64,000 nucleotides of DNA from Acidimicrobiia bacterium (GCA_965214265.1 CBDCBK010000010.1:678230-742229), one strand, 5' to 3'. Shown: positions 2,068 to 51,989, numbered from the stretch's first letter. Numbers and translations are program-made. Notes: generated by a model not told the origin, from the sequence alone.

Positions 2068-3396
2068 TCAGAACCCAGGTTCTATGCGATGAATGGCATC
2101 GGTGGTGAGGACGTACATCTCTTCTGATCCGTCGCTGCCGAAAGAGACCACGGAGCCCAGTTCGGGCGTCCATTCCCGCAGGTCGGTGGCCAGGGTGCCG
2201 TCCCATCGGAAACTGCGGAGATAGCCACCGCAGTAGTCGGAATAGAAGTAGTGGCCCTGCAGGCCGGGCATGGCAGATCCTCGGTAGACGATGCCGCCGG
2301 TTACCGAACAGGTTCCGCCGTCGTCGTGGACGATCTCCAGCACCGGCAGCGTGAGGCTCTCCGAGTTGCATCCTTGGCGGGGTTCGTAGCAGTGTAGGCC
2401 TTCAGTGATCGGCCATCCGAAGTTGAGGTCCGGTTCTGAAAGCATCGCCACGTTGATCTCCTCGTAGGCGTCCTGGCCGACGTCGGCGATGTAGGTCAAG
2501 CCGGTGGGCCCGTCGATCCAGAACCGCCAGGGGTTGCGGAGGCCGTACCACCACACCTCTGAAGTCACCTGGTCGGGGTCGATGCGCACCAGCGCCGCCA
2601 AGGGAGTATCGGGTCGCTGGCCGTGACCGTAGTAGTCGCCGGCTCGGCCGCCGTCGCCCAGTCCCAGGTAGAGATAGCCGTCGGGCCCGAACTGGATCAT
2701 CCCGCCGTTGTGATTGGTGGCGGGTTGTTGGGCAAAGAAGATGATTCTCTCCGAGTCGGGATCGGCGGTCCGTCCGTTGTCGGAAAGGGAGAATTCCGAG
2801 AGAACGGTGTGACCCTGCCGGTTGCTGTAGTGCACGAAGAGGCGAGCGGGCTGTGTGGGGTGCAAGGCGATTCCCAGGAGTCCCTGCTCTCCTCGGAACG
2901 TCACCTTTTCGGTGATGTCCAACACCGGAGCACCGGCTATCTCGTCGTTGTGTAGATAGAGGATTCGTCCCCCCTGTTCGGCCAGGTAGGAGTGGGAGGC
3001 GCCTGGTGTTGCGGCCAGGAAGATGGGATTTCTCGCTCCCTTGGCGACTTCGACGAACCGGAGGGAGTCGGGAGGCAGCGCCACAGTGGTGGTAGTCGCT
3101 TGTTCGAGTTCGGCGGGAGGCGAGGTGGCAGTGGGGAGAGAGGTAGTACTCGTGGAGGTCGTGGGCGCATCATCGCGGCCGGTGACGGAGGTTTCATCGG
3201 GCCGGGGGTCCTCTTCACCGGAGGGGGCGGTAGTTGTGGCGGTGGTGACCGTAGAGGTGGTCATGTTCGAAGAGGACGACGCGGTGGTGGTCACCGATGT
3301 CTCTGGAGGGAGAACCTCCTCCTGGGGGGAGGAGCACGCTGCGATTGTCAGCACTACGACCAACCAGGCCAGTCTCCTGCTCATCCGCCTCGGCAT
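2068..3396 (-). CDS. PQQ-dependent sugar dehydrogenase (soluble glucose/sorbosone dehydrogenase family) lipoprotein with Thr/Ser-rich linker
   Basis: Lipobox 'LTIAAC'. Family motifs 'AEQGGRILY' and 'HNGGMIQFGPDGYLYLGLGDGG' are present. 442 aa. Confidence 0.75.
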   Translation of the reverse strand: MPRRMSRRLAWLVVVLTIAACSSPQEEVLPPETSVTTTASSSSNMTTSTVTTATTTAPSGEEDPRPDETSVTGRDDAPTTSTSTTSLPTATSPPAELEQATTTTVALPPDSLRFVEVAKGARNPIFLAATPGASHSYLAEQGGRILYLHNDEIAGAPVLDITEKVTFRGEQGLLGIALHPTQPARLFVHYSNRQGHTVLSEFSLSDNGRTADPDSERIIFFAQQPATNHNGGMIQFGPDGYLYLGLGDGGRAGDYYGHGQRPDTPLAALVRIDPDQVTSEVWWYGLRNPWRFWIDGPTGLTYIADVGQDAYEEINVAMLSEPDLNFGWPITEGLHCYEPRQGCNSESLTLPVLEIVHDDGGTCSVTGGIVYRGSAMPGLQGHYFYSDYCGGYLRSFRWDGTLATDLREWTPELGSVVSFGSDGSEEMYVLTTDAIHRIEPGF

Positions 3397-3526
3397 TCGG
3401 GCGACAGCCTCCTCTCGATACGTCCGAAACTTACTGGATCAGGGGATCGATAAACCCGTTGCCGAGGTCCATGCGACAAGAGGATTGCCAGGATACCGGT
3501 CCGGGCGTGACAGACCGGGGGATTGG

Positions 3527-3928
3527 TCACACCCCGATCACCGTCAAGCCGGCAGATCGTGCGGCCTGTCCCTGTCGTATGTCGAAAGTGAGGAAAGTGG
3601 TTGCATCGCCGACGCGCCGCGCCGCAGCGATGTGCAGCGCATCCAGAGATCGGCACAGGGTCTGCTCGGCGATGCGTGCCGCCTCATTGCAGGTGACGGT
3701 ATCGAGGTCTATGAGAGCGAAGCTGTTCAGGTCGGATCGCACCAGTTGCCGGGTGCGAAGCAAGTGGTCGCCGGCGAGCAGTCGGGTAAGGTTGCGGCGT
3801 AGCTCGACCTCGGTGAGGCGGGAGGTGACCAGCACCGGATCGGACCGAATCAACTGTTCGGCGAAGTCGGAGTCCGACTCGGCGATATACCGCTTCAGCA
3901 GAGCGCTAGTGTCCACATAGAGGGTCAC
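3527..3928 (-). CDS. vapC: type II toxin VapC (PIN-domain ribonuclease)
   Basis: PIN signature 'TLYVDTSALL ... TEVE ... DALHIAAA ... FDIRQ'. Likely GTG start at 3928, overlapping the upstream antitoxin stop (GTGA). The longer ORF to 4021 is a spurious N-terminal extension. Confidence 0.8.
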   Translation of the reverse strand: MTLYVDTSALLKRYIAESDSDFAEQLIRSDPVLVTSRLTEVELRRNLTRLLAGDHLLRTRQLVRSDLNSFALIDLDTVTCNEAARIAEQTLCRSLDALHIAAARRVGDATTFLTFDIRQGQAARSAGLTVIGV

Positions 3929-4179
3929 CCGCGATCCTCGTCCAGTGCATCGGCGGTGCTCCGGCCGGCCTTGCATCGGACGATGGGTTCCAACCCGGCG
4001 CCTGAGGGAGGAGTGATCCAACCCCCGGCTATTCCCCGGTCGACCGCCGACACGCCGCCGAGGCCTACCAGTCGGGCCACGGGTTTGCCCCGGTGGGTGA
4101 CGAGGATCGGTTCCCCCCTCCCGGCTCTTCTGACGTAGTCGGAGAGATGGGCTTTCAGTTCGCGTATACCCACATTCAT
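3925..4179 (-). CDS. Phd/YefM-family antitoxin
   Basis: 'MNVGIRELKAHLSDYVRRAGRGEPILVTHRGKPVARLV' is a typical Phd/YefM N-terminus. ATG at 4177-4179, and the stop overlaps the vapC start. Confidence 0.75.
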   Translation of the reverse strand: MNVGIRELKAHLSDYVRRAGRGEPILVTHRGKPVARLVGLGGVSAVDRGIAGGWITPPSGAGLEPIVRCKAGRSTADALDEDRG

Positions 4180-4256
4180 GTAGTCACCACCGATTAGTGT
4201 AGTAACTACAGCGATAAGACCTACGGTGGGTTCAGGCGAGGCGATCATCTTTATAG

Positions 4257-5322
4257 ATGAATGACATGGAGGATCGAGTGTCCCGGCAGCCGCGCCGCCC
4301 CACCAGCACCTCCGTTTTCGGGGCAGGTCGAAGAGAGAGCCACGACTCGTCGGCCTTCTACGCCCGTTTCCAGCCACCGATCATCGATGACGACGACCGG
4401 ATAGGCTCTAGTCCTGACCTCGACGGGCCGATCCTGGGGGACGCCCGGAGAATGGAGGAACTCCCCGACCGCTCCGTCGCTCTGGTGGTTACCTCACCTC
4501 CCTATTTCGTGGGGAAGGAATATGAGGACGCGGTGGTTCAGGCGGCTCGGTCGAATGACCTCGAAGCTGAGATACCCAAGAGCTACGGTGAGTACCTCCG
4601 GCTGCTCCATGATGTCTTCACTGAATGCGTCCGGGTGCTGGAGCCGGGAGGCCGCATCGCCGTCAATGTGGCCAATCTGGGCCGAAAGCCCTATCGCAGC
4701 CTGTCGGCTGACGTCATCGGGATCTTCGAGGCTCTCGGTCTGCTGCTCCGGGGCGAGATTATCTGGCGGAAGGCTTCCGCGGCTGGCGGGTCGTGTGCCT
4801 GGGGTTCTTTCCGGAGCCTGGCCAATCCGGTGCTCAGGGACGTAACCGAGCGGATCGTGATCGCCTCCAAGGGCCGGTTTGATCGGGCTCTTAGTGCGGC
4901 CCAGCGCCGATCCCAAGACCTTCCACACCGGTCCAGCGTGGCCAATGACGAGTTCGTGGAAGCCACCCTGGACGTGTGGGAGATTCCTGCCGAGAGCGCC
5001 CGTCGGGTGGGCCATCCGGTTCCTTTTCCTGTCGAGCTTCCCCTGAGGCTCATCGATCTTTACACCTACCTGGACGATCTGGTGCTCGATCCCTTCATGG
5101 GATGAAGGGACGACATTGGTGGCTGCTCATCGAGCCGGGCGGAGGGGAGTCGGCTACGACATCAACAGCGAATACGTGGACATCGCCTTGGAGAGGCTGG
5201 AGCTTGGGTACCGCCGTCCGTTTCTGGAGGAGGAGGCGGGGCGGGCGTTGTCAGCCAACGGTGTCGCCGATGTTTTGGTTTTGGACGGCAATTCCGGGGA
5301 GGATTCCAGGCGCGGGCGGTGA
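4257..5322 (+). pseudogene. beta-class N4-cytosine/N6-adenine DNA methyltransferase (motif IV 'SPPY' precedes motif I); single frameshift between 'DPFMG' and 'GTTLVAAHRAGRRGVGYDIN'
   Basis: 'VALVVTSPPYFVGKEYED' (motif IV) then 'LDPFMG*' at 5105. Motif I continues in the +1 frame as 'EGTTLVAAHRAGRRGVGYDINSEYV' (ORF 5116..5322). The frameshift is not in a homopolymer. Confidence 0.6.
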
Positions 5323-5788
5323 GGGAGGGGAAGAAGGCGCAACGCTTGGCGCGGGACGCCTTGGAGGATGCCGGGTTCGAAATCCTCAGGACGAACCCCA
5401 GGATTGGTGGGTTGGGCATCCAGTTCAGCTTTCTCGTCGAAAACCGGTGCGGCCAGAAGTGGTATGTGGATGTCTCGGGTGCTTCACCACCGTCCGGCCG
5501 GGACTCCGGCGCACCGACACCTTGTGGAAGACGCTGGGCCGTGCTCACGTTCACTGCATGGCTGGCGATGAGACGCCGCTTCTGGTTATGACCTCTAATC
5601 TCCCCAAGCAGGGAAGCGAGGGTCGCAAGGCGCTGGAAGCGGTCGGGCCGCAGAGCGTCTTCGACGCCTTCGAGATCTACCGGGAGCGGGACAGGATGCG
5701 GCTCCGTGATTACGGAACACAGGAGAACCCTGTCCCCTTGGAGGGGTTCTGGACGCAACAGGAGATCGACCAGGCCTTTTTTCAGTAG
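5319..5788 (+). pseudogene. small hypothetical protein translationally coupled (GTGA) to the methyltransferase, possibly a PD-(D/E)XK/Mrr-like restriction nuclease; internal frameshift near 5490
   Basis: The ORF at 5319 begins with GTG overlapping the MTase stop. 'GFEILRTNPRIGGLGIQFSFLVENRCGQKWYVDVSGA' continues in another frame as 'FTTVRPGLRRTDTLWKTLGRAHVHCMAGDETPLLVMTSNL...'. The nuclease assignment is weak. Confidence 0.3.
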
Positions 5789-5835
5789 GTGCCTATGAGT
5801 CCAAGGTTGACAGGGGCGCCACACCCGCCGTTCGG

Positions 5836-6180
5836 TTGGCCGACACTAGGGAAGATCCTGTGGGTGGGTATGAGCAGGCGGCTGGCCAAACCCCGGCTCA
5901 GCGCATGGCCCTCATAGCCCGGGACCGGGGTTGTGTGGGCTGTGGCGCTGATCCGGCCTGGTGTCAGGCGCATCACCTCATCCCCTTGGGAGGTCGGGGG
6001 ACCCACCGACATCGCCAATCTGTGCTTGTTGCCGCTGTCACCACCAAGTACACGACGACGGCTGGCAAATCCAACGAACGCCTGCGGGAAAACATGTTCT
6101 CCAACCGCCCCACCCCACAAACCCCTCCCCGCTGCCCATCAAGACTCCACCCCGCCGCCGAGGGCACCGTAAACCAACTA
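5836..6180 (+). pseudogene. fragment of 13E12-repeat/DUF222-type HNH endonuclease (C-terminal HNH motif only, frameshifted)
   Basis: 'CVGCGADPAWCQAHHLIP', then in shifted frames 'GGPTDIANLCLL' and 'CRCHHQVHDDGWQIQRTPAGKH'. This is the HNH core split over three frames. Confidence 0.6.
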
Positions 6181-6247
6181 CCAAACTGATATTGTGAAAA
6201 CAGTCTCCTGGGTTTAAAGGCCTCTATTGTCGGCGGCTGCCCGGGGA

Positions 6248-6712
6248 TCAGACCGCGCCCATGTAGCGATGGTGGGACCAGGCCTCGTAGACCACGATGG
6301 CCACCGAGTTGGCAATGTTGAGGCTGCGAACGCCCGGCAACATAGGGATGCGAGCGGTCTCATCCACCCAGGGGGAGGACATGACTTCCTGAGGTAGCCC
6401 GGTCGACTCGGGCCCGAACAGCAGGGCGTCGCCCGGCGCGTAGTCGAGCGAGGAATGCCAGTTGACGCCCAGGGGCGAAAAGGCGTATACCCGCTCGGGT
6501 TGTTCGGCCTCCAGCCAATCGTCGAGGCTTGCGTGGACCTGGGTGACCACCCTCTCCCGATAGTCCATCCCCGCTCGCTTGAGGCGGGTGTCGGACATCT
6601 CAAATCCCAACGGCTCGATGAGGTGGAGAAGGCATCCGGTATTGGCGGCGAGCCGCATGATATTGCCGGTGTTGGGGGGAATCTCGGGCTGGTAGAGAAC
6701 AATGGAGAACAA
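6248..6712 (-). CDS. trmL: tRNA (cytidine(34)-2'-O)-methyltransferase TrmL (SpoU family)
   Basis: Near full-length similarity to E. coli TrmL: 'IVLYQPEIPPNTGNIMRLAANTG ... IPMLPGVRSLNIANSVAIVVYEAW'. Confidence 0.85.
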   Translation of the reverse strand: MFSIVLYQPEIPPNTGNIMRLAANTGCLLHLIEPLGFEMSDTRLKRAGMDYRERVVTQVHASLDDWLEAEQPERVYAFSPLGVNWHSSLDYAPGDALLFGPESTGLPQEVMSSPWVDETARIPMLPGVRSLNIANSVAIVVYEAWSHHRYMGAV

Positions 6713-6733
6713 GTCGGCTCTTTGCCTGGGGAC

Positions 6734-7900
6734 TCAGACTCCCGGTCCGAACACCAGCACTGTGTTGTGGCCCCCGAAACCGAAAGAATTGGAGACCGCC
6801 AAACCGGGCTCCCAGTCCTGTCGTTCGGTCACGATCCGGTGGAGGGGTATCTCGGGGTCTTGTTCGCGCATTCCGATGTTGGGAGGGATCTGTCCACGGC
6901 TGATGGCCAGCACTGTGGCCACGGCCTCTATCCCCCCACTGGCCCCCAAGGCGTGGCCGGTGGTTCCCTTGATGGAAGAGACCAGCGGCTGGCGATCACC
7001 CCAGATCGCCGAGATCACCCGTCCCTCGCCCACATCGTTGAGGGGAGTGGAGGTGCCGTGAGCGTTGATGTAGCCCACCTGTTCGGAAGTGGCCCCAGCG
7101 TCGTCCAATGCCCACCGGAGGGCTCGCCGGGCGCCGTCGCCCTCGGGGTGGGGAGCGGTGATGTGATGCGCGTCGGAAGTAGTCCCCGCCCCCAGCAGCT
7201 CGGCCAGGATGTCGGCGCCCCGCTCCCGCGCCTTGTCCCACTCCTCTAAGACCATCATGGCGGCGCCCTCGCCCACCACGAATCCGTTGCGGTCAATGTC
7301 GAAAGGCCGCGACTCATCGGTGGGAGAAAGCGCCCGGGCAGAGCGGAATCCGGCGATGGTAGCCGGTCGGATGGCCGCTTCGGATCCACCCGCCACCATC
7401 AGATCGGCGTACCCCCATTGCACTTGGCGGAGAGCGTCGCTGATGGCCTGTGCGCCTGCCGCGCAAGCCAAGGTCTGGGTGGTCGCCGGACCGAGAAAAC
7501 CAAACGTGATGGATATGGCGGCAGCAGCGGCGTTGCCCATCATCATGGGAATAGCCACCGGGGATGGCCGCTGGTTGTCACTGTTGACAGCCTTCACCAG
7601 ACCCTCAAACGATCGCATCCCTCCGATGCCGGTTCCCACGCACGCCCCAGCCCGCACGGGGTCCGTCTCATGGTCTCCCGCCATGGCCAGCGCCTCGTGG
7701 GCGGCCACCCGCGCATATTGGGAGAACAGGTCCAGGCGTCGGACCTCGCGGCGAGGAATCCAGGACGAGGGATCCCAGCCGTCAACGGTGAAGGGACCTT
7801 TTCCCGGGTCCTTGGTAAGACCTTCCCAAAAGGCATCCACTCCTACGCCCGGGCCGGTGACCACCCCCACTCCGGTGACGGCGACCCTACGCCTCTTCAC
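6734..7900 (-). CDS. fabF: beta-ketoacyl-ACP synthase II (KAS II, FabF/KasA-like)
   Basis: 'RRVAVTGVGVVTGPG...' N-terminus, active-site region 'ACAAGAQAI', and C-terminal 'SNSFGFGGHNTVLVF'. Confidence 0.8.
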   Translation of the reverse strand: MKRRRVAVTGVGVVTGPGVGVDAFWEGLTKDPGKGPFTVDGWDPSSWIPRREVRRLDLFSQYARVAAHEALAMAGDHETDPVRAGACVGTGIGGMRSFEGLVKAVNSDNQRPSPVAIPMMMGNAAAAAISITFGFLGPATTQTLACAAGAQAISDALRQVQWGYADLMVAGGSEAAIRPATIAGFRSARALSPTDESRPFDIDRNGFVVGEGAAMMVLEEWDKARERGADILAELLGAGTTSDAHHITAPHPEGDGARRALRWALDDAGATSEQVGYINAHGTSTPLNDVGEGRVISAIWGDRQPLVSSIKGTTGHALGASGGIEAVATVLAISRGQIPPNIGMREQDPEIPLHRIVTERQDWEPGLAVSNSFGFGGHNTVLVFGPGV

Positions 7901-40728: not shown

Positions 40729-40877
40729 TCCCGTCCTTTCGTCATCTCGGATCGTGCTAAGGTCGGGATGCGTGCTAAGTGGGGCGCTAGGGGTTCCCTG
40801 AACCCGAAATCCTCTACATGCGGGGCCGAATTCCCCGCCTGAGGATGCCGAGCCCCGGGCAGGCGGCAAGAGCGCAG

Positions 40878-40982
40878 TGATGACGGCCGGGTCCCGTGAG
40901 TCGGGGTGGTCGTGAACCGGGTCAGATCCGGAAGGAAGCAGCCCTAAGCGGGTGTCCCGGTGCCACGGGGGCGCCTGGTCTG
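40878..40982 (+). ncRNA. ffs: signal recognition particle RNA (small bacterial 4.5S-type)
   Basis: The conserved domain IV motif 'GGTCAGATCCGGAAGGAAGCAGCC' (40919-40943) sits inside an extended hairpin (cccgtg...cacggg). Overlapping ORFs 40896..41402 (+) and 40922..41227 (-) are rejected. Ends are approximate. Confidence 0.7.
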
Positions 40983-41069
40983 AGCAAGCGGCTTGTCAGC
41001 CGACCGGAGGTGTCGAGTCCGAAGGCGGGGTGCACGCTTGGGCGGAAGGCGGCATGGCCCGCGGCGCCG

Positions 41070-44024: not shown

Positions 44025-44186
44025 GCGCTCTGTTCGTAGGTTAAGGTGTCACGGATGTTTATTGACATTCTCGATCGGTCCTTATCGGCTCACAACCTTG
44101 TTCGGCGCCTGCAAACTTTGATCTTCCCGGCAGCGGGCGGGACCTGACTGCGGGCACGCTCCGTGCGTTAGCATCCTGGGGCGAAA

Positions 44187-44873
44187 ATGACGGAAGCGCA
44201 CTTTACTCCGCACCTCTTTGAGTTTCTCCTCGACTTGGCAGCCAATAACAACCGTGAATGGTTTCAGATCAACAAAGATCGATACGAACAACGCGTTAAG
44301 GAACCACTGCTCCGGTTCATAGAAGACTTCGGACCGAGGCTGGGCTCGATCAGCGCGCATTTCGTTGCCGACGCGCGGCCCCACGGCGGGTCGATGTTCC
44401 GCATTTATCGGGATGTCCGGTTTTCAAAAGACAAGAGTCCCTACAAGACCCAGGCCGCTGCGCACTTTCGTCATGAAGCCGGGAAGACAGCCCATGCTCC
44501 GGGCTTCTACCTTCATCTGGCGCCCGGAGAAGTTGGGGCGGGGGTGGGAATCTGGCGGCCCAACACGCCTGCATTAACCAAGATTCGCAACGCCATCGTT
44601 TCGGACCAGGGCGGATGGGAGAAAGCCGCAAAGGACCCCAGTTTTCTGGGTGAATTCTCGATCGGTGGGGACTCACTGAAACGCCCGCCCAAGGGTTTCA
44701 ATGCGGATCACCCCCATCTCGAAGACCTCAAACGCAAGGACCACATCGCATGGTTCGAATTGGACGAGGATGACGCGGTCTCGCCGGGTTTCCTGGACGA
44801 CTTTGCTGACATCTGCCACCGATCCGTGCCTTTTGTGAGGTTTCTGACCACCGCGGTGGGCCTGCCTTTTTAG
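44187..44873 (+). CDS. TIGR02453/DUF2461-family protein
   Basis: 'FTPHLFEFLLDLAANNNREWFQINKDRYEQRVKEPL' family N-terminus. 228 aa. Confidence 0.7.
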   Translation: MTEAHFTPHLFEFLLDLAANNNREWFQINKDRYEQRVKEPLLRFIEDFGPRLGSISAHFVADARPHGGSMFRIYRDVRFSKDKSPYKTQAAAHFRHEAGKTAHAPGFYLHLAPGEVGAGVGIWRPNTPALTKIRNAIVSDQGGWEKAAKDPSFLGEFSIGGDSLKRPPKGFNADHPHLEDLKRKDHIAWFELDEDDAVSPGFLDDFADICHRSVPFVRFLTTAVGLPF

Positions 44874-45084
44874 GAGCCCCGAACAGAAACCTTCGGTTCT
44901 CGGCCATGGGGCACGGCAAGGCTGGGCTACCCAGCCTCTGAAATCCCGTCATTCACCTGGGGTTTGAATCCCATCTATCCCTCTTGGGTAACCAGCTGCA
45001 GTTCTAGGGGCGACTTACGCTTATCGGTTACGAAATGGGTAGAAGACTGGTGGTGTTCCCGCCGATGGCGATCACACCGGTGGC

Positions 45085-45863
45085 GCTCGCCACGAACACT
45101 ATTTGGCGCACGTCCTCGGGCTGAGACCCGGGATGGTCGTGGCTGACCTCGGTTGCGGCGTTGGCGGACCGCTAATTGAGATTGCTCGATTGTCCGGCGC
45201 CAGGATCGTGGGAATTAACAACAATGCTTACCAAATCGAACGCGCCCGAAAACACACCGAAGAAGAGGGCCTGACTCATCTGGCTGAGTACATGCAATGC
45301 GACTTCCAGGACGTCGATGCTCTGGACAACTCGTTCGACGCGGTCTACGCCATCGAGTCAAGCTGCCATGCGCCGGACAAACTCAGCGTATATGGCGAGG
45401 TGTTCGCTTGCTGAATCCGGGCGCGTGCTTTGCTAATTACGAGCGGTGCCTGACGGATCGCTTCGACGCGAGTAATCCCCACCACCTCAAGATCAAGGCT
45501 GACATCGAGCTAGGAGGCGGCCTGCTAGACATTGACTACCGTCATGCTGTTGATGACGCACTTCGAACGGTGGGATCCGAGGTGTTGGAAATACGAGATC
45601 TTGCGGAACAGTCAGGTCCGTCCATCCCTTGGTATCAACCGCTGATCGGTTCAGGTCTATCCCTGGCCAGCTTTCGCAGTTCATTGATCGGACGCTTTGT
45701 CACCCACATCTCACTGCGAGCGCTTGAGGCGTTTCACGTTGTGCCGCAAGGAACGGTTCGCGTATCGAAGACTTTGAATCTCTGCGCGGCTGCGATGGTC
45801 GAGGCGGGCCGGCTGGGTATCTTCACGCCAATGTACTTTTTGCACGCTCGCAAGCCGGCGTAG
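45085..45863 (+). pseudogene. sterol 24-C-methyltransferase (Erg6/SMT)-like SAM-dependent methyltransferase remnant: 5'-truncated and frameshifted near 45400
   Basis: Homology begins at 'ARHEHYLAHVLGLRPGMVVADLGCGVGGP...GINNNAYQIERARK...AIESSCHAPDKLSVYGEVF', then in the next frame 'LLNPGACFANYERCLTDRFDASNPHHLKIKADIELGGGL...IPWYQPL...LGIFTPMYFLHARKP'. It is collinear with Erg6 (ARHEHYLA..., EIELGDGIP, LFTPMMLFVARKP). Confidence 0.65.
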
Positions 45864-45993
45864 CGCGGTCCGAACTTGGCGTTCGAGTCCCTCAGCCAGA
45901 ATTTCAGGCGCCGACAGCACCCCCTACTGTCGCTTTCACCGCGTCCGGAAACCTCCGCTTCTCCCAGAGCGCTGTTGAACCACCCCCCACATT

Positions 45994-46110
45994 TAGGTCA
46001 AAAGCCATCCGAAAACACCCCACTGACGGCCTGACGCCCCCAACGCCGGCAACCCCGGTGGACATGGGGCTTCGCTAACTAACAGGCCCGTAAATCGCCG
46101 ATCTGAGGGG
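45994..46110 (+). repeat. DR0: degenerate copy of the tRNA-Leu 3'-flank repeat ('aaaacaccc..aacggcctga.gcccc')
   Basis: Alignment by eye with DR1/DR2. Confidence 0.4.
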
Positions 46111-46261
46111 TCCCTGGGGAGTGCGGGGAATGGCTGAAATGCCCTTGATCCCGCTGGCCCCGGCTGTGTCGGCAGCCGTCTTTGATGCCGTGGGGGTATG
46201 GTTCGACGAGTTGCCCCTCACTCCGGAGCGAATCTCCGCTTGCAATCCAAGCAACACGGCC

Positions 46262-46382
46262 CCCGACCAGCCAAAAACACCCTCCGCAACGGCCTGAAAC
46301 CCCCAAAACAGGAATAATCAGCGCGTCCGACGCTAAATCGCTAATACACAGCGTCCTAAATCGCTAATACTTCATGGTGGGC
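46262..46382 (+). repeat. DR1: ~115-bp direct repeat of the sequence that flanks tRNA-Leu(CAG), ending in the tRNA 3'-terminal 8 nt (tggtgggc)
   Basis: 'gaccagccaaaaacaccctccgcaacggcctgaaacccccaaaacagg...gcgcgtccgacgctaa...catggtgggc' versus 51803..51908 'gaccagcctaaaacaccctccaaaacggtcgcgaacccctaaaaccagg...gcgcgtctgccgctaa...gatggtgggc'. Confidence 0.7.
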
Positions 46383-46465
46383 TGTTAGCGACCACCCCTG
46401 ACCTGCACCCTAGCTGAGGGTTCCGAGAGAGCTCCACATTTCAAAGGGGTCGTGCTCCACATTGC
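46375..46465 (+). repeat. R1: ~90-nt repeat-family element (GGCTGTTAGCGACCACC...TGACCTGCACC...GGTTCC...GCTCCACATTT...GGGGT.G.GCTCCACATT)
   Basis: One of three copies (R1-R3) plus a short R-like sequence at 45968-45998. Contains an internal direct 11-mer GCTCCACATTT x2 spaced about 25 nt apart. Confidence 0.7.
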
Positions 46466-46573
46466 GGGAGCATTGATGACGGGTCACTCCTGAAAGCGGC
46501 CGACCTCCCCCGTCGACGCTAGATGGCCACCAGGCAAGGAAGGTGGGGAGAGGCCGCTGGAGGCGCGGTTGTC

Positions 46574-46972
46574 TTAACGAATGATCCAGTCGATATCGAA
46601 GTCGAACTTGCCACCCTCGTCCCTGGCGAATGGACTTAGATCGCAAACCTGATTTCCTTTTGTATTCCAGGAAATCTCTCCGCCGTCGATCTCGCAGGCC
46701 ACCTCCTTTGCCCTTTGATGCTCAAGGGACTCGTTCTGGTTTTCGATCATCGCTCCTTGGTTTTCAACGATCACCTTCTGGTTTTCGATCATCACATAGA
46801 GGATGCCGGCCAGGACGAGAAGTATTCCTGTCAAGAGAACGGCTATGAACCGAAAGGGTCCTGATCGGGAATCTGACAATCTCTGAACATCCGCGCCCGC
46901 CGGGGTGGACCCTTGGTTAGGGCTGCTTTCACTCATTGGAGAATCCATCTTTTCTGGTCTGCCCAGATACAA
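46574..46972 (-). CDS. hypothetical single-pass membrane protein (lower GC; internal short repeat MIENQ...)
   Basis: TM 'FRFIAVLLTGILLVLAGILYVMI'. Flanked by the R1 and R2 repeats. No recognisable domain. Confidence 0.4.
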   Translation of the reverse strand: MYLGRPEKMDSPMSESSPNQGSTPAGADVQRLSDSRSGPFRFIAVLLTGILLVLAGILYVMIENQKVIVENQGAMIENQNESLEHQRAKEVACEIDGGEISWNTKGNQVCDLSPFARDEGGKFDFDIDWIIR

Positions 46973-46997
46973 ACGCCTGAGTCATGTGGTTAGGGTA

Positions 46998-47090
46998 GGC
47001 TGTTAGCGACCACCGTTGACCTGCACCTTGGGAGTGGTTCCCTGAGGTGCTCCACATTTCGGAGGGGTGGGGCTCCACATTTGGGAACTC
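46998..47090 (+). repeat. R2: second copy of the ~90-nt repeat-family element
   Basis: 'ggctgttagcgaccaccgttgacctgcacc...ggttccctgaggtgctccacatttcggaggggtggggctccacattt'. Confidence 0.7.
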
Positions 47091-47275
47091 CGATTTATGC
47101 CGAAGGGTGGCATCGAGGTGGTTATGGACTTACACCAGCACCGAAGTTAACCCTTCCCGATGGTTCCCCCCACCGGGACTAGCTGATAGCACGCCGGTTG
47201 ATGGGCCGAAACGCAGATGGGGTCAATGAAGCAACTGGCCTGTGCTGCCCCTCCATGGGTTTGGCTGTGCAGTTA

Positions 47276-47788
47276 CTATTCGATTGAGGAGTACAGTTTT
47301 CGATGCGTCACCGAAGGCGATTCATATCCGTCGTCTATTTGAAGATCCTGCCCACGGGCAGCTTGGACCGCTAGCTGATCACACCGCTCGTTTTCTGGGT
47401 CGCCAGCGTGTCCGCGTACCCACCGAAACTCCACCTCGTGCTTCTCGCATAGGTCAAGGAGCCTCCCCCAGAGGTCTGGGTTCACAGCCCGTTCCCGCTT
47501 ATTGCGCATCCAACCGTTCTCCCGCCAACGTTTAGCCCAACCCTCCTGAATGCCTCCCACTACATATTGTGAGTCGCTGTGCAGGATCACCTGGCAGCTC
47601 TGGTTGAGGACTTCGAGACCTTTTATCGGTCCCATCAACTCCATGCGGTTGTTGGTTGTGCGTCGGTAGCTCCCGCGAAGCTCACGGCGGTGAGCCCTGT
47701 GTGACAGCACCACTCCATAGCCGCCTGGACCGGGATTGCCGACGCATGCGCCATCCGTGTAGATGATGACTTGCTTTTTGGGTGCCAT
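47276..47788 (-). CDS. rnhA: ribonuclease HI
   Basis: 'IYTDGACVGNPGPGGYGVVL', 'TNNRMEL' and 'HSDSQYVV...WVRGHAGDPENERCDQLA' (DEDD catalytic residues). 170 aa. GC is lower than in core genes. Confidence 0.85.
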   Translation of the reverse strand: MAPKKQVIIYTDGACVGNPGPGGYGVVLSHRAHRRELRGSYRRTTNNRMELMGPIKGLEVLNQSCQVILHSDSQYVVGGIQEGWAKRWRENGWMRNKRERAVNPDLWGRLLDLCEKHEVEFRWVRGHAGDPENERCDQLAVQAARGQDLQIDDGYESPSVTHRKLYSSIE

Positions 47789-48138
47789 CAGCCTGATACC
47801 TTGGCTATAGAACCGGGATCGAGTTCGAATCCGGCCTCCCCAAGCCGCTGGCAGAGCTTTGCCGCTGCCTCTTTGACATGGTTGTTGAAGGGCAGGTAAA
47901 TGATGCCGCTGGCATCTGAGGGAACGTCGACATGGCCTTTCTTCAATATGGCAACTCGAGGTCTTCCGAACGCCGCTATCAACATTCCCATTTCCATAAC
48001 AACATTCTGTCTGGCGCGAGGTGCAGCGTTTGCTGGATTATCCCCCTGCTCGTATCCCATGTCATCAGGGGTGAGCAACACGATCCCGAATCGCATCCCC
48101 TTTGATGGAGATACGATTTCGCGTTCCAATGCATCCAA
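47788..48138 (-). CDS. TIR-like nucleotide-binding domain protein (COG4271/PF10137-like), N-terminally short/truncated; stop overlaps rnhA start (TGATG)
   Basis: 'FGIVLLTPDDMG...APRARQNVVMEMGMLIAAFGRPRVAILKKG' matches the conserved core of the TIR-like (MTH538-type) domain. It begins with TTG and there is a stop two codons upstream. The usual N-terminal 'VFIvHG' strand is absent. Confidence 0.5.
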   Translation of the reverse strand: MDALEREIVSPSKGMRFGIVLLTPDDMGYEQGDNPANAAPRARQNVVMEMGMLIAAFGRPRVAILKKGHVDVPSDASGIIYLPFNNHVKEAAAKLCQRLGEAGFELDPGSIAKVSG

Positions 48139-48589
48139 TCCTGCTCAACTGGATTTTGCTGCTCATCTGTGTCGTTGCGCACCTCGGGGATCATCTTCAT
48201 TTAGCCACTCCAATTCGGACCTTCGCCGCTTACTCAATGATATACCTTGATGCTTAGCCTGTCGTGCTCTAGGGTCACCAACGGCCAATCGCCAATTCCG
48301 GATGTGCTTCCCGGCCCGATGTCAGCGACCAAGAGAGAACCAGATGCCGTTCCCTCCGATTTGGTGCAACGGGAACTAGACGATACCAGGACCAGTTTCG
48401 CTGATAAGTGCCCACTCATTAAAGAAACGCTCCTGCCTTGCGGGAGTGGGAACGGTTGTCGCCGGAGCAGCAGAACCGTTGCCGCGTGGCGCTGGCGCGA
48501 CCGACCGCACCGCCCCCCGATGCGCTCGTGAACCAGAATGACAATCCCCGTGTTTCTGCTACTGTTACTATCCGCCCTAAGCACGGGGA

Positions 48590-49294
48590 ATGGTGGTCAC
48601 AGCTACGAATATCTCAATCCTTGAACGCCCAACCTACGGGATTTCAGAAGCCGCCAAGCACTTGGGCATCCGCCGTGACCGTGTTCGCGCTTGGCTTGAT
48701 GGCTACATACGGCGGGGCAAGGCATATCCGCCGGTAATCCGCCCACAGGCCACAGGCGAAGACACGGTGACTTGGGGAGAGTTCGTCGAACTCGGTTATC
48801 TCCGCGAGTACCGTCGCAAAGGAGTGTCGCTCCAGTATCTGCGTCCGGTCATAGACGAGTTGCGTAACGTGTTCGAACTGCCCTATCCGCTGGCGACAAA
48901 GAACCTGTACCTCAATGGCCACGAGATAGTTTGGAAGCTGCAGGTTGAAAACAATCTGCCTTCCGCTCTTGCCATGGTGGTGCGGTCGGGACAAATGATG
49001 ATGCTGGCTGACGAGGCTAGCAGTTTCTTCAACAAAATTGAGTTTGATCCCAATGGCGATGCCTTAGGCGAGGCTTGCCGCATATACCCGGGAGGCGTGG
49101 ATGCGTATGTGAGCATCGACCCACTGGTGTGCTTTGGCCGCCCGGCCATTGGAGGCGTGGCCACTGAGCGACTTTGGGAACTACGAGTAGCTGGAGAAGA
49201 GGTGAGCGGGATCGCAGCAGACTATGAAATGCAGGAGTACCTGGTGAGGGCAGGCGTTGCCTTCGAGGAGATGCAAAGGGTCTTAGCGGCATAG
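48590..49294 (+). CDS. DUF433-domain protein with N-terminal HTH-like extension (antitoxin-like partner of DUF5615)
   Basis: The C-terminal 'CFGRPAIGGVATERLWELRVAGEEVSGIAADYEMQEYLVRAGVAFEE' fits DUF433. Confidence 0.55.
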   Translation: MVVTATNISILERPTYGISEAAKHLGIRRDRVRAWLDGYIRRGKAYPPVIRPQATGEDTVTWGEFVELGYLREYRRKGVSLQYLRPVIDELRNVFELPYPLATKNLYLNGHEIVWKLQVENNLPSALAMVVRSGQMMMLADEASSFFNKIEFDPNGDALGEACRIYPGGVDAYVSIDPLVCFGRPAIGGVATERLWELRVAGEEVSGIAADYEMQEYLVRAGVAFEEMQRVLAA

Positions 49295-49303
49295 CCAGCG
49301 CCT

Positions 49304-49708
49304 ATGCCACACCGGTACTTCGCAGACGAGACAGACTTAGGACTCGGTAAGCGACTGGACGACTTCCTGCCGGGAGAGGTTGTTTATCCCGGTCATCCTG
49401 ACCTTCCAGAGATTCCTCGAGGGTGCCCGGACGACAGATGGTTAGAATTCGTAAGCCGTCGTCGACTTGTTGTGATCACTCGTGACAAACGTATACGAAC
49501 GCGGCCTGTACAAAAAGCAAAGTGGATCTCTTACAAGACGCGGGGCTTCGTATTGACCGGGAGAAAGAACCAAACAAGCACCGCAAGTCTCCTAACCCTC
49601 AAGAAGCACTGGACATCGATCCTCGAGCAGATACAAAACGAGCCTGATGGTCCATGGATGTTCGCAGTGACCGAGGCAGGCGGACTCCGAAGAGTGCCCT
49701 TGGAATAA
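49304..49708 (+). CDS. DUF5615 (Mut7-C/PIN-like RNase) family protein, toxin-like partner
   Basis: 'RYFADETDLGLGKRL...RRRLVVITRDKRI' fits DUF5615. It lies 10 nt downstream of the DUF433 gene. Confidence 0.55.
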   Translation: MPHRYFADETDLGLGKRLDDFLPGEVVYPGHPDLPEIPRGCPDDRWLEFVSRRRLVVITRDKRIRTRPVQKAKWISYKTRGFVLTGRKNQTSTASLLTLKKHWTSILEQIQNEPDGPWMFAVTEAGGLRRVPLE

Positions 49709-49956
49709 GGACGGGGATTCTGAGGTGGATTGTCAGTAGGCACTTCCCACTTGCATTGTTAGTCGCTTGGCCACTGCCTGTGTTTCCTGTCGGCCCCCAA
49801 CTCCAAACCTTCGTCCCCGCTTCTCCCGTCTTCCAGAAAAAAAAATGGGCTTCTCCCGAAGCTTCCCTACACAATTGACGTCCCAAGAACTCCAGGTTCC
49901 CGCGGCGCGCGCAATGCTGGGACTCGTGCATCCTGCCCCGGCCCGGGTCGGTGTGG

Positions 49957-50052
49957 TGGTGGGGTGGGCTGTTAGCTACCACCTCTGACCTGCGCCTTAG
50001 AAAAGGGCTCGCAGAGGGTTCCACATTTGAAGGGGGTGGGGCTCCACATTTC
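49957..50052 (+). repeat. R3: third copy of the ~90-nt repeat-family element
   Basis: 'ggtgggctgttagctaccacctctgacctgcgcc...gggttccacatttgaagggggtggggctccacattt'. Confidence 0.7.
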
Positions 50053-50316
50053 AGCAGAGTAGGTGTGGTTGGGTTTCCCGACGGGGGGGTGAAGTCGTCG
50101 ATGCAGGAAAATCCGAAGGTCTCGGCAAAGAAACCTTCCTCCTGGAGTTCTAGCACTAAGAGGCGGGTGCGACAGACTATCTCTTGTAGTGATTCTTCAA
50201 GAGTGGCCTGCGTTGCCATGCGGCGTTGGGAATAGTAGACGCGTGGGGGCGGATCCTGGGGCACTGTCGGGGCGGCATCGGCGAGTTCGGCGAGCCACTC
50301 CAAGGAGTATGTCAAA

Positions 50317-51588
50317 ATGGATCCTCATATCGGGCGTAGGTGCTGGTATCTGGCGGATTCTTCACGCTACGAACGAAGTCCTCCGCTGGTACCCCTGACT
50401 GAACGCCTGACGCGCCGAGCCGGTTGTTCGGCGGTTCGTAGATGGCCGGGCTCCCAGCATAGGCTAGAGGCACTAATGACCTGTCAGGGCTCTTCCGTAT
50501 CCGTTGCGCGCCAACCGGGGCGGTACGCGCCGGTGAGGTGGCAACTAGGCGCGGTGTTGTTGGCCTCCCTGTTCCCCATATTCGTTGAGGTCATGCCCCA
50601 TGAGGACGCTTTTCTGTTGTCGGGAATGATTTTCGTGGGCAACTCCGCGGGTGTCGCGTTGAATCTGGCCCTTTTCCACAAGAACCTGGTGGCCGACAGG
50701 ACCGTTCTGCGGTTGCTGCTCCGCAGGGCCGCCCCTTGGCGGATCGGACGGGGCGAGGGCACGGCCGACCGGGAACGCCAGATGTTGCTGTCCCGCTTGA
50801 GCTTGGTGTGTATCTGCGCTCAGATCAGCATGATCCCTTATGTGTTGTCCACCAACTATGTGGATACTGCCGTCACCGCCATACTGAATGCCGCTGCGCC
50901 GATTCTCTTTGTGGTGCTGTTGTCAAGACAGGATCGTACCGTGGGCAGATACCGCAAACTGACCGCGGGTACCTTTGGGGTGCTGTTGCTTGCTTTCGCG
51001 GGTCTGACGTTGGTCGTGCTGGGAACGACCGACCTGGCCTCCTCTACTCGGCCTGCACCTCTCGGAGGTTTGGTTATCGGATTGCTCCTGGCGTTGCTGG
51101 CCCCCGTGTTGATATCGTTCAGTGCCAGGGCATTCCGATGGGGATCCGAGATGGCCTCCGATCTGTGCACCATGGGCCATGCATCAGCCACTGACCGGCA
51201 GCGAACCGAGTCGGCGTGCGTGCTGTTGGCGATTGGGGTGGGCAGCCTCGGCGCGTCGGTGCCCACACTCGTGATCGCTCTCGGCACGGGAGAGCGCATG
51301 GGCATTCTGCCTCTTGCCGCCGCATTTGCTTACGGGCTGATAGTGCAATGTGGCACCGCCGTATGTCACCGCACTGCGATGCTCCGCACCAGATCGCTGT
51401 CCATCAGCGCCCTCTCCTATGCCACTCCCCTTTTCGGCCTGCTGTGGTTGTGGGTGTTCTCGGACATACAAGTGGCGAACATCGACTATGTGCTGATAGG
51501 TGCCGTGGGGATTGTCACGGCGAACCTGTTGCTGGCCAGAGTCATTCCCTCCAGGAGTTCCCCAAGGGCATGTTCCTCCTCCCGATAG
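50317..51588 (+). CDS. DMT-superfamily (EamA-like) membrane transporter; start uncertain
   Basis: About 10 TM helices. The C-terminal 'LSYATPLFGLLWLWVF' is an EamA-like signature. A plausible internal start lies near 50472. Confidence 0.5.
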   Translation: MDPHIGRRCWYLADSSRYERSPPLVPLTERLTRRAGCSAVRRWPGSQHRLEALMTCQGSSVSVARQPGRYAPVRWQLGAVLLASLFPIFVEVMPHEDAFLLSGMIFVGNSAGVALNLALFHKNLVADRTVLRLLLRRAAPWRIGRGEGTADRERQMLLSRLSLVCICAQISMIPYVLSTNYVDTAVTAILNAAAPILFVVLLSRQDRTVGRYRKLTAGTFGVLLLAFAGLTLVVLGTTDLASSTRPAPLGGLVIGLLLALLAPVLISFSARAFRWGSEMASDLCTMGHASATDRQRTESACVLLAIGVGSLGASVPTLVIALGTGERMGILPLAAAFAYGLIVQCGTAVCHRTAMLRTRSLSISALSYATPLFGLLWLWVFSDIQVANIDYVLIGAVGIVTANLLLARVIPSRSSPRACSSSR

Positions 51589-51800
51589 TAGGTCCCCATG
51601 AAGGTTGGTTCGGAACTCGCCACCCCCGGGTCATTGGTCCGGCCCCGGCCGACTGCGCTACCCAGACGACGTTCTCAACCGGCGATGATCCTCTAGCCTG
51701 TACCATCCCCACCGCTCCCCTGAACCGACAGTAACCCCTACTGTCGGCCACGCCGGTCCGAGAAAGCAGGCCCTTCCCCCAAGCCGCCGGATCACGGCTG

Positions 51801-51908
51801 CTGACCAGCCTAAAACACCCTCCAAAACGGTCGCGAACCCCTAAAACCAGGGAAATCCAAGGAGAATCGGCGCGTCTGCCGCTAAGTGGCTAACAGTCGA
51901 TGGTGGGC
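51801..51908 (+). repeat. DR2: native copy of the flank repeat immediately adjoining the tRNA-Leu 3' end
   Basis: See DR1. Confidence 0.7.
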
Positions 51909-51989
51909 GAGGGGGGACTTGAACCCCCACGGGTGTTAAAGCCCACAGGATCCTGAATCCTGCGCGTCTGCCAATTTCGCCACTCGCCC
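51901..51989 (-). tRNA. tRNA-Leu (anticodon CAG), CCA encoded
   Basis: Reverse complement: acceptor GGGCGAG, anticodon stem CAGGA/TCCTG with loop TTCAGGA, long variable arm, T-arm GGGGG-TTCAAGT-CCCCC, then ACCA. Confidence 0.85.

What the first reader, a model, noticed from the sequence alone, without database searches (positions are those of the whole stretch)
47276..48138. RNase HI translationally coupled (TGATG) to a TIR-like (COG4271) domain fragment
A TIR-like (MTH538-type) nucleotide-binding domain is best known from conflict systems, so its stop codon overlapping the start of an RNase HI gene is an unusual pairing. It could be a two-gene nucleic-acid-targeting/NAD-signalling module carried on the islet. 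The TIR-like ORF lacks the usual N-terminal strand and starts at TTG, so it may be a decayed copy. The RNase H could also simply be the cell's housekeeping rnhA, because no second rnhA is seen in the window.
Basis: partly seen in the sequence, partly recalled or inferred. Interest (0 to 1): 0.55.

Follow-up and report, generated by a model that had tools for sequence, protein, structure and literature searches.

The report
Decayed TIR–RNase HI defence-like gene pair
The window holds a broken copy of a two-gene cassette, a TIR "suicide-enzyme" protein followed by its own RNase HI, that recurs intact in many unrelated bacteria; it looks like an undescribed immune-type module built around RNA:DNA hybrids.

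Summary
An intact RNase HI gene (47276-47788, minus strand) starts inside the stop codon (TGATG) of a 116-codon ORF (47788-48138) that matches only the C-terminal 60% of a Cap12/PycTIR-type TIR domain.

The pairing is not chance.
- About 30 loci from Chloroflexota, Acidobacteriota and Verrucomicrobiota have a full-length (~263 aa) homologue directly upstream of an RNase HI. Most share the same T(G/A)ATG overlap.
- These loci lie in at least 12 unrelated neighbourhoods, and the pair usually has lower GC than its flanks.
- Two different RNase HI lineages were recruited.

The intact partner matches PADLOC candidate PDC-S35. It has a ~72-aa N-terminal domain, a disordered linker and a TIR domain with the catalytic Glu. 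The N-domain's best structural match is the RNA/DNA-hybrid-binding domain of RNase HIII, followed by the RNase HI-binding NRD of the RnlA toxin.

In the window, codons 1-147 of the TIR gene were replaced by 338 unrelated bases, so it is a pseudogene. A sister Acidimicrobiia genome kept the 5' half but deleted the rest, including the RNase HI. The RNase HI is therefore accessory, not the housekeeping rnhA.

Function (hybrid-sensing NADase defence) is inferred, not shown.

The parts
47276..47788 (-). Intact RNase HI gene (170 aa), the second gene of the module
   Evidence: PF00075 E=4e-44. NF001236 at 197.6 bits, above the 160 cutoff. 51% identical to E. coli RnhA with catalytic D/E/D/H/D aligned. 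62-82% identical to the RNase HI downstream of TIR genes in the Chloroflexota and Vicinamibacterales loci.
47788..48138 (-). Remnant of the first gene: the C-terminal 116 codons of a ~263-aa TBP-like-domain/TIR protein (PDC-S35 family). It is a pseudogene that lacks the N-domain, the linker and the first ~40 residues of the TIR domain.
   Evidence: PF10137 positions 45-118 of 119. PADLOC PDLC05003 positions 132-244 of 245, E=1.7e-52. tblastn with P0256 aligns only residues 148-262. In-frame stops lie upstream. The motif RARQNVVMEMG, with the Glu aligned to the Cap12/PycTIR NVVFEFG Glu, is retained.
47786..47790 (-). TGATG stop/start overlap (translational coupling junction)
   Evidence: Read directly from the sequence. 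The same T(G/A)ATG overlap occurs in more than 20 other loci.
48136..48472 (.). 338-nt segment unrelated to the module. It replaces the 5' part of the TIR gene and its upstream region.
   Evidence: Alignment with sister genome L047: homology holds on both sides (window 49761-48473 and 48135-48064, 97%), but this segment does not align with the 212 nt that in L047 encode ..KKVFVVYGHDD... Apart from the same locus in two metagenome contigs (L001, L002), one of them the near-identical L001, the only other match in the window or fetched loci is a 39-nt stretch (90%) in L047 at the upstream junction.

Best explanation
The window carries a dead copy of a conserved, horizontally mobile two-gene module.

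Intact module (shown):
- Gene 1 encodes a ~263-aa protein. It has a ~72-aa N-terminal alpha-beta4-alpha domain, a ~35-aa disordered Pro/Ser/Ala linker and a Cap12/PycTIR-type TIR domain with the conserved Glu. It matches PADLOC candidate PDC-S35.
- Gene 2 is a canonical RNase HI with intact catalytic residues. Its ATG overlaps the stop of gene 1.

State in the window (shown): gene 1 lost codons 1-147 when they were replaced by unrelated DNA. Only the RNase HI is still intact.

Proposed mechanism (inferred):
1. The N-domain is a TBP-like module of the kind that binds RNA/DNA hybrids in RNase HIII and docks RNase HI in the RnlA toxin.
2. It couples the TIR effector to RNA:DNA hybrids, to the co-encoded RNase HI, or to both.
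3. In uninfected cells the dedicated RNase HI keeps hybrid levels low, or holds the TIR protein in check.
4. Phage or plasmid replication, or reverse transcription, produces excess hybrids or titrates or inhibits RNase HI. The TIR domains then assemble and hydrolyse NAD+, which aborts the infection.

In this genome the system cannot work. The RNase HI survives as a spare, dispensable RNase H.
For: Conserved pairing:
- 3 of 3 first contexts had RNase HI downstream.
- About 30 of 45 genome loci have RNase HI immediately downstream, most with a T(G/A)ATG overlap. L054 and L055 add two more.
- Only the two genes are shared across at least 12 unrelated flank sets.
- Pairwise distances of the two proteins correlate: Mantel r=0.88, 0 of 2000 permutations reached it.
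- RNase HI-linked TIR genes form one large clade plus a separate Verrucomicrobia clade.
- The Verrucomicrobia RNase HI belongs to a different, E. coli-like lineage: 57-60% identity to EcRnhA against 45% to the window protein. This points to two recruitments.

Mobile and accessory character:
- Module GC is 1-11 points (mostly 4-11) below the flanks in 14 of 15 loci.
- Integrase, relaxase, IS and toxin-antitoxin genes are neighbours.
- The window host is an Acidimicrobiia (L047 flanks are 94-99% identical), yet the pair is about 75-78% nucleotide-identical to Chloroflexota copies.
- L047 has deleted the TIR 3' half and the RNase HI.

Defence flavour:
- PDC-S35 match, E=1e-72 to 1e-80.
- Standalone homologues sit between hsdR and hsdM in three alphaproteobacteria, on a plasmid beside IS5, VapC and an integrase, and on E. 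coli phages.
- The TIR part matches Cap12 TIR-STING and PycTIR by sequence and fold, and the Glu is invariant.

N-domain:
- AlphaFold2 pLDDT 85.8.
- hhalign places the motif TGtLQvQG on RnlA NRD TGKLQIQG (P=0.011) and on Bst RNase HIII SGKVLFQG (P=0.083).
- The domain also occurs fused to a deaminase.

Literature:
- The RNase H3 N-domain binds only RNA/DNA hybrids (PMC4132731).
- RNase HI binds the RnlA NRD and controls that anti-phage toxin (PMC5308261).
- RnlA-family HEPN toxins are fused to RNase H or to TBP-like domains (PMC3710099).
Against: - No experiment shows defence, NADase activity, hybrid binding or a TIR-RNase HI contact.
- No TIR-RNase HI fusion protein was found.
- The RNase HI looks like an ordinary housekeeping enzyme. 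Some loci sit among housekeeping genes, for example L005 and L017 next to recA.
- An intact TIR gene persists where the RNase HI is deleted (L022) or split by an IS (L053). The RNase HI is therefore not strictly needed to tolerate the TIR protein.
- Whether host genomes carry another RNase H could not be checked.
Confidence: 0.6

Rival explanations
1. The RNase HI is the cell's housekeeping rnhA. The TIR-like fragment is an unrelated chance neighbour.
For: The protein passes the NCBIfam ribonuclease HI equivalog cutoff. It is 51% identical to E. coli RnhA. No other RNase H is seen in the 64-kb window.
Against: The adjacency and overlap recur in about 30 loci in unrelated contexts. The gene is deleted in the sister genome L047. 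The sequence is Chloroflexota-like in an Acidimicrobiia host and lies in a low-GC islet. A related strain carries a second RNase H nearby (L002).
Confidence: 0.05
2. The pair is a selfish toxin-antitoxin-like addiction module with no immune role. The TIR protein is the toxin. The RNase HI counteracts it enzymatically by removing the activating hybrids, or by binding.
For: Tight translational coupling. Frequent pseudogenisation of one or the other gene. Mobile-element and toxin-antitoxin neighbourhoods. RNase HI is required to neutralise RnlA through RnlB (PMC5308261).
Against: An intact TIR gene survives without its RNase HI in L022 and L053. Many family members are standalone. The gene order is toxin first, and the 'antitoxin' would be a stable enzyme, both atypical for type II systems (general knowledge).
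Confidence: 0.15
3. The pair is a nucleic-acid maintenance operon rather than a conflict system. The TBP-like/TIR-like protein would be an accessory factor that recruits or regulates RNase HI on R-loops or primers. The TIR-like fold would act as a nucleotide-binding or N-glycosidase domain, not an NADase.
For: The N-domain resembles the substrate-binding domain of RNase HIII, and this RNase HI lacks a hybrid-binding domain of its own. Some loci are among housekeeping genes such as recA, folD and coaBC.
Against: The family is a PADLOC defence candidate. Members sit inside type I restriction-modification operons, on phages and on plasmids. The module has low GC, a patchy distribution, frequent decay and mobile-element contexts. 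The TIR domain is closest to NADase effectors and keeps their Glu.
Confidence: 0.15
4. The 116-aa ORF in the window is a functional short TIR-like protein, not a pseudogene.
For: The ORF is open and keeps the conserved C-terminal motifs and the TGATG coupling. A 102-aa version is annotated in public data (P0001).
Against: It lacks Pfam positions 1-44, which include the first strand and the GHD motif, as well as the whole N-domain. Its 5' end coincides exactly with a rearrangement breakpoint. Only a TTG follows in-frame stops. Full-length relatives are 258-265 aa.
Confidence: 0.05

Closest known systems
PADLOC candidate system PDC-S35 (single-gene, Cap12/PycTIR-type TIR protein)
   Same: Gene 1 matches the PDC-S35 models very strongly: PDLC05003 E=1e-72 to 1e-80 for full-length relatives and 1.7e-52 for the window fragment. 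Standalone members occur in defence-type contexts.
   Different: PDC-S35 is defined as a single gene, and I found no paper describing it. In this clade the gene is translationally coupled to a dedicated RNase HI, which has no PADLOC model. The window copy is truncated.
RnlA-RnlB / LsoA-LsoB (RNase LS) anti-phage toxin-antitoxin systems with host RNase HI as cofactor
   Different: The effector here is a TIR domain, not a HEPN RNase. There is no RnlB-like antitoxin gene. The RNase HI is encoded in the operon rather than borrowed from the host. Physical interaction was not tested.
RNase HIII (type 3 RNase H) N-terminal TBP-like substrate-binding domain
   Different: No RNase HII-like catalytic domain is attached. 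The catalytic RNase H is a separate type 1 enzyme. Homology is not confirmed by Foldseek or Pfam.
TIR NADase effectors of CBASS (Cap12, TIR-STING), Pycsar (PycTIR) and SPARTA (TIR-APAZ plus short pAgo)
   Same: Same TIR family, PF10137. The R.NVV.E.G motif and its Glu align. The fold matches TIR-STING, SPARTA TIR and TcpB. As in SPARTA, a TIR effector is paired with an RNase H-fold protein that deals with RNA:DNA duplexes (analogy, from general knowledge).
   Different: No cyclase, SAVED, STING or cNMP-binding sensor, no APAZ and no Argonaute is present in the conserved neighbourhood. The partner is a catalytically intact canonical RNase HI, not an inactive PIWI.

Membership tests
Ribonuclease HI (PF00075 / NCBIfam NF001236) | Full-length match above the curated cutoffs | tested here: met
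   PF00075 150.5 bits against 25.8, covering positions 2-140 of 141. NF001236 197.6 bits against 160.
Ribonuclease HI (PF00075 / NCBIfam NF001236) | Catalytic carboxylates and His (E. coli D10, E48, D70, H124, D134) | tested here: met
The same residues are conserved in 22 module RNase HIs.
Ribonuclease HI (PF00075 / NCBIfam NF001236) | [quoted passage not shown] | not testable with these tools
   Needs an enzyme assay.
Cap12/PycTIR TIR domain (PF10137) | Match above the Pfam gathering score | tested here: met
   76.6 bits against 24.7 for the window ORF. 105-109 bits for full-length relatives.
Cap12/PycTIR TIR domain (PF10137) | Complete domain, including the first strand and the GHD motif | tested here: not met
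   The window ORF covers profile positions 45-118 only. Residues 1-147 of the 263-aa protein are absent. The feature is met in relatives, for example P0256 with positions 1-118.
Cap12/PycTIR TIR domain (PF10137) | Conserved Glu in the R.NVV.E.G motif (assigned as catalytic from my own knowledge of TIR-STING) | tested here: met
   Invariant E196 (P0256 numbering) aligns with the Glu of NVVFEFG in 9lmq/7un8 and of NVHLEFG in PycTIR 8jsj. It is present in the window remnant.
Cap12/PycTIR TIR domain (PF10137) | NAD+ hydrolase activity | not testable with these tools
   Needs biochemistry.
PADLOC PDC-S35 | Match to the PDC-S35 HMMs | tested here: met
   PDLC05003 E=1.7e-52 for the window fragment (positions 132-244 of 245). 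E=1e-72 to 1e-80 for relatives.
PADLOC PDC-S35 | Single-gene system | tested here: not met
   In this clade the gene is coupled to an RNase HI in about 30 loci. Other clades are standalone.
PADLOC PDC-S35 | Demonstrated anti-phage activity | not tested
   No paper found. Needs phage challenge.
CBASS / Pycsar | Adjacent CD-NTase or pyrimidine cyclase, and a nucleotide-sensing domain (SAVED, STING or cNMP-binding) on the TIR effector | tested here: not met
   No such genes are in the conserved neighbourhood. The N-domain is a TBP-like fold. Cap12 equivalog scores are about 30 bits against a cutoff of 450.
Thoeris | ThsB-type TIR plus a signal-responsive effector (ThsA and others) | tested here: not met
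   The TIR is PF10137 and no ThsB-type TIR family (PF08937) was detected. The only conserved partner is RNase HI. The 2025 survey of TIR systems lists no RNase H effector.
SPARTA (short pAgo / TIR-APAZ) | APAZ domain on the TIR protein and a MID-PIWI Argonaute partner | tested here: not met
   Pfam finds only PF10137 and PF00075. There is only fold-level TIR similarity to 8isy.
RnlA/LsoA (RNase LS) toxin family | HEPN (Dmd-binding) RNase domain and an RnlB-type antitoxin | tested here: not met
   No HEPN or RnlA Pfam hit apart from one insignificant RnlA_toxin match, E=0.22. Only the TBP-like domain resembles the NRD.
RNase HIII | TBP-like N-domain fused to an RNase HII-type catalytic domain | tested here: not met
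   N-domain similarity only. The C-terminal domain is TIR, and the partner nuclease is type 1.
TBP-like (RNase HIII-N / RnlA-NRD) domain superfamily | alpha-beta-meander-alpha fold with significant structural or profile similarity | tested here: inconclusive

The most novel reading that the evidence does not exclude
The intact module is a previously undescribed class of TIR-based immune system. It would sense RNA:DNA hybrids (phage or plasmid replication primers, R-loops, reverse-transcription products) through an RNase HIII-type TBP-like domain. A dedicated RNase HI would serve as co-sensor or safety catch. The N-domain would be a portable 'hybrid / RNase HI' adaptor, also attached to other effectors such as deaminases, and evolutionarily linked to the RnlA-RNase HI axis.
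Probability: 0.3. Interest if true: 0.8.

Novelty: new variant of a known kind. Interest (0 to 1): 0.62.

Why it matters
TIR NADase effectors are known to be triggered by cyclic nucleotides (CBASS, Pycsar), by guide-target duplexes on Argonautes (SPARTA) or by phage proteins.

A TIR effector wired to a canonical RNase HI and to an RNase HIII-like hybrid-binding domain would add RNA:DNA hybrids as a danger signal. It would also extend the so far isolated RnlA-RNase HI observation into a general design principle.

The hypothesis is directly testable. It needs two small genes, clear point mutants, and simple NADase, EMSA and phage assays.

For annotation, 'ribonuclease HI' genes preceded by a PF10137 gene should not be assumed to be the housekeeping rnhA. 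For this window specifically, the locus is a decayed relic in a variable islet. It documents how such modules erode: reciprocal deletions in sister strains.

Tried and rejected
- **Fusion proteins.** A concatenated TIR+RNase HI query found no PF10137+PF00075 fusion. The top hits were tandem RNase HI duplications.
- **Viral contigs.** 25 IMG/VR loci carry homologues, none with an adjacent RNase H. Phage and plasmid records hold only standalone homologues.
- **Retron or other ncRNA link.** Rfam finds only tRNAs and SRP RNA in the window.
- **Third conserved gene.** All-against-all comparison of flank ORFs found none. Apparent extra clusters are shadow ORFs on other frames of the two genes.
- **Foldseek with the N-domain against PDB.** No significant hits.
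- **Pfam and PDB sequence profiles of the N-domain.** Nothing significant.
- **Contexts of N-domain proteins with other C-terminal domains (P0491, P0415).** The contigs were too short, and no RNase HI was seen.
- **Promoter/terminator scan.** Uninformative.
- **Literature.** No paper on PDC-S35 or on a TIR+RNase HI operon. The 2025 TIR-system survey has no RNase H effector.
- **CBASS, Pycsar, Thoeris and SPARTA membership.** Considered and rejected because the defining partners are missing.
- **Remnants of the missing 5' part.** I considered that the out-of-frame 73-aa ORF (47979-48200) or the upstream in-frame sequence might be decayed remnants. The DNA alignment with L047 shows unrelated sequence instead.

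Full report
**1. Observation**

- The RNase HI ORF is 47276-47788 (-), ATG start, 170 aa. The TIR-like ORF is 47788-48138 (-), TTG start, 116 aa.
- The minus strand reads TGATG at 47790-47786, so the upstream stop and the downstream start share one base.
- The downstream protein is a canonical RNase HI. It hits PF00075 with E=4e-44 over the whole domain. It passes the NCBIfam rnhA equivalog at 197.6 bits against a cutoff of 160. It is 51% identical to E. coli RnhA with the catalytic D/E/D/H/D positions conserved.
- The upstream ORF matches PF10137 (Cap12/PycTIR TIR) with E=2e-21, but only profile positions 45-118 of 119. In-frame stops lie just upstream.
- The observation, including the missing N-terminal strand, is confirmed.

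**2. The pairing is conserved**

- Close homologues of the TIR fragment were looked up in their contigs. In three unrelated neighbourhoods an RNase HI gene followed immediately.
- A scan of one genome per species returned 45 loci. About 30 have RNase HI directly downstream.
- These loci come from Dehalococcoidia/SAR202 and other Chloroflexota, a Vicinamibacterales (Acidobacteriota), two Verrucomicrobiota and an Akkermansia.
- In more than 20 of them the junction is the same one-base overlap, TGATG or TAATG. The remainder have gaps of 0 to about 30 nt.
- An all-against-all comparison of flank ORFs shows at least 12 unrelated contexts. Only the two genes are shared.
- Pairwise distances of the two proteins are strongly correlated: Mantel r=0.88, and 0 of 2000 permutations reached it.
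- The module's GC is 1-11 points (mostly 4-11) below its flanks in 14 of 15 loci, and also in the window: 55.7% against 61.9%.
- On a TIR tree the RNase HI-linked genes form one large clade and a separate Verrucomicrobia clade.
- The Verrucomicrobia RNase HI belongs to a different lineage. It is 57-60% identical to E. coli RnhA but only 45% identical to the window protein. This indicates at least two independent recruitments of an RNase HI behind this kind of TIR gene.

**3. What the intact partner looks like**

- Full-length relatives are 258-265 aa. They have three parts: a conserved ~72-aa N-terminal domain, a ~35-aa Pro/Ser/Ala-rich linker and the TIR domain.
- AlphaFold2 models the N-domain as alpha-beta4-alpha, the linker as disordered and the C-terminus as a flavodoxin-like TIR fold.
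- The TIR part matches TIR-STING (9lmq), SPARTA TIR and TcpB by Foldseek. By sequence profile it matches Cap12 TIR-STING and PycTIR.
- The invariant Glu of RARQNVVMEMG aligns with the Glu of NVVFEFG. From my own knowledge, that is the catalytic Glu of TIR-STING.
- PADLOC assigns the protein to candidate system PDC-S35, E=1e-72 to 1e-80. The RNase HI has no PADLOC match.
- Modelled alone, the N-domain reaches pLDDT 85.8.
- Profile-sequence alignment puts the nearly invariant motif NWW.STGTLQ.QG on RnlA NRD ..TTGKLQIQG (P=0.011). It also puts it on Bst RNase HIII ..AYRSGKVLFQG at the equivalent place (P=0.083).
- I therefore treat 'TBP-like, RNase HIII-N/RnlA-NRD-like' as probable, not proven.
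- A profile search finds 833 representatives of the N-domain. Most are joined to PF10137, but one is joined to a cytidine-deaminase-type domain. This is the behaviour expected of a portable sensor or adaptor head.

**4. What happened in the window**

- The window comes from an Acidimicrobiia. Locus L047 (OZ253443.1, a 2.79-Mb chromosome) is 94-99% identical on both sides of the locus.
- L047 keeps the part of the TIR gene just upstream of the window remnant..KKVFVVYGHDDVACEQLELLL..RFGIVLLTPD. It does not have the N-domain. It then jumps to sequence that lies about 1.95 kb further on in the window. L047 has therefore deleted the TIR 3' half, the RNase HI and the following ORF.
- The window (and L001 and L002) keeps the 3' half and the RNase HI. 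The 212 nt that encode the 5' part in L047 are replaced by 338 unrelated nucleotides (48136-48472). The breakpoint falls exactly at the TTG 'start'.
- Only residues 148-263 of the ~263-aa protein remain. The TIR ORF is a pseudogene, and the two strains carry reciprocal wrecks of one ancestral module.
- Other loci show similar erosion:
  - frameshifted TIR genes in L004, L005, L033, L035, L043, L045 and L048;
  - tiny TIR fragments in L049 and L050;
  - an interrupted RNase HI in L010;
  - an RNase HI split by an IS in L053;
  - an RNase HI deleted down to its first ~9 codons in L022.

**5. Housekeeping or accessory?**

Four observations argue that this RNase HI is an accessory, horizontally acquired gene.
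- It is Chloroflexota-like in an actinobacterial host.
- It sits in a low-GC islet next to a DUF433/PIN_10 pair and dispersed repeats.
- It is lost in the sister strain.
- The pair occurs next to integrases, a relaxase and IS elements elsewhere.

Whether the genome has another RNase H could not be tested. A related strain does carry a second, 151-aa RNase H nearby (L002).

**6. Likely function**

Evidence for a conflict or defence role of the family:
- the PDC-S35 assignment;
- standalone homologues inserted between hsdR and hsdM of type I restriction-modification systems in three alphaproteobacteria;
- a homologue on a Paludisphaera plasmid beside IS5, VapC and an integrase;
- homologues on E. 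coli phages;
- an NADase-type TIR domain.

Published precedents for a link to RNA:DNA hybrids and RNase HI:
- The RNase H3 N-domain binds RNA/DNA hybrids specifically (PMC4132731).
- E. coli RNase HI binds the NRD of the anti-phage toxin RnlA. It both stimulates the toxin and is required for its control by RnlB (PMC5308261).
- RnlA-family HEPN toxins occur fused to RNase H modules or to RNase HIII-like TBP domains. This was interpreted as targeting DNA-RNA duplexes of invading elements (PMC3710099).

My best model is that the N-domain ties the TIR effector to RNA:DNA hybrids and/or to its co-translated RNase HI. The RNase HI would set the threshold. Excess hybrids, or loss of RNase HI activity during infection, would unleash NAD+ depletion.

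Every step after 'conserved operon of these two proteins' is inference.

**7. Rivals**

- A housekeeping rnhA with a chance neighbour is essentially excluded.
- A purely selfish toxin-antitoxin-like pair remains possible.
- A nucleic-acid maintenance operon, in which the TBP-like protein acts as an RNase HI accessory factor, also remains possible.
- A functional short TIR protein in the window is unlikely.

**8. Novelty**

- I found no description of a TIR+RNase HI operon, nor of PDC-S35 itself, in the searchable literature.
- A 2025 systematic survey of TIR systems does not list an RNase H partner.
- The module is best called a new variant of known kinds: a PDC-S35/TIR effector, with an RnlA-like dependence on RNase HI.
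- The copy in this window is a relic. The interest lies in the family it points to.

Noticed in passing
window 46985-47091, 46376-46463, 49952-50051: A ~90-100-nt dispersed repeat (78-82% identity between copies) lies inside the islet. Further copies are in L001, L002 and L047, some at rearrangement junctions between the window and L047. It may be a MITE/REP-like element that mediates the deletions.
   Followed up: partly
window 45103-45414 and 45297-45863: A frameshifted sterol/cyclopropane-fatty-acid-type methyltransferase is split into a 103-aa and a 188-aa ORF. In L001 the pieces carry PF02353/Methyltransf and PF08498 Sterol_MT_C. The region is absent from the sister genome L047.
   Followed up: partly
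window 48590-49294 (+) and 49304-49708 (+): An HTH/DUF433 gene is followed by a PIN_10 gene. This looks like a putative toxin-antitoxin pair, divergent from and directly upstream of the TIR remnant. It is conserved in L047. Neither gene has a PADLOC match.
   Followed up: partly
L002:1647-2102 and L002:2413-4403: A related strain carries different islet cargo: MJECL32/MJECL33-family genes and a second, 151-aa RNase H that is only 33% identical to the module RNase HI.
   Followed up: no
P0241, P0242, P0243, P0312, P0316: These are tandem-duplicated RNase HI proteins of 314-358 aa. In P0241-P0243 the second copy has lost the catalytic Asp motifs (for example YVYGSA and RNSNGY). They may be a pseudo-enzyme partner domain.
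   Followed up: no
L040, L041, L046 (about 1400-7050): In three alphaproteobacteria the standalone TIR homologue sits between hsdR (EcoEI_R_C/ResIII) and hsdM (N6_Mtase) of a type I restriction-modification system.
   Followed up: partly
P0491 / L083:3956-5809: The same N-terminal domain is fused to a cytidine/dCMP-deaminase (MafB19-like) domain in a 617-aa protein. It lies downstream of a DEAD/ResIII helicase with an MZB domain. The contig ends before the next gene can be read.
   Followed up: partly
L007:6107-7516 (also L006, L008, L013, L025): In one Dehalococcoidia sub-lineage a Schlafen AlbA_2 / HATPase_c_4 / Fic-like_C protein gene starts right after the RNase HI stop. A Replic_Relax/MarR-like gene lies upstream.
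   Followed up: no
window 40770-41037 (+); 51901-51989 (-): SRP RNA is present, and a tRNA-Leu(CAG) lies at the right edge of the low-GC islet (about 44100-51900). The tRNA may be the integration site of the islet.
   Followed up: no
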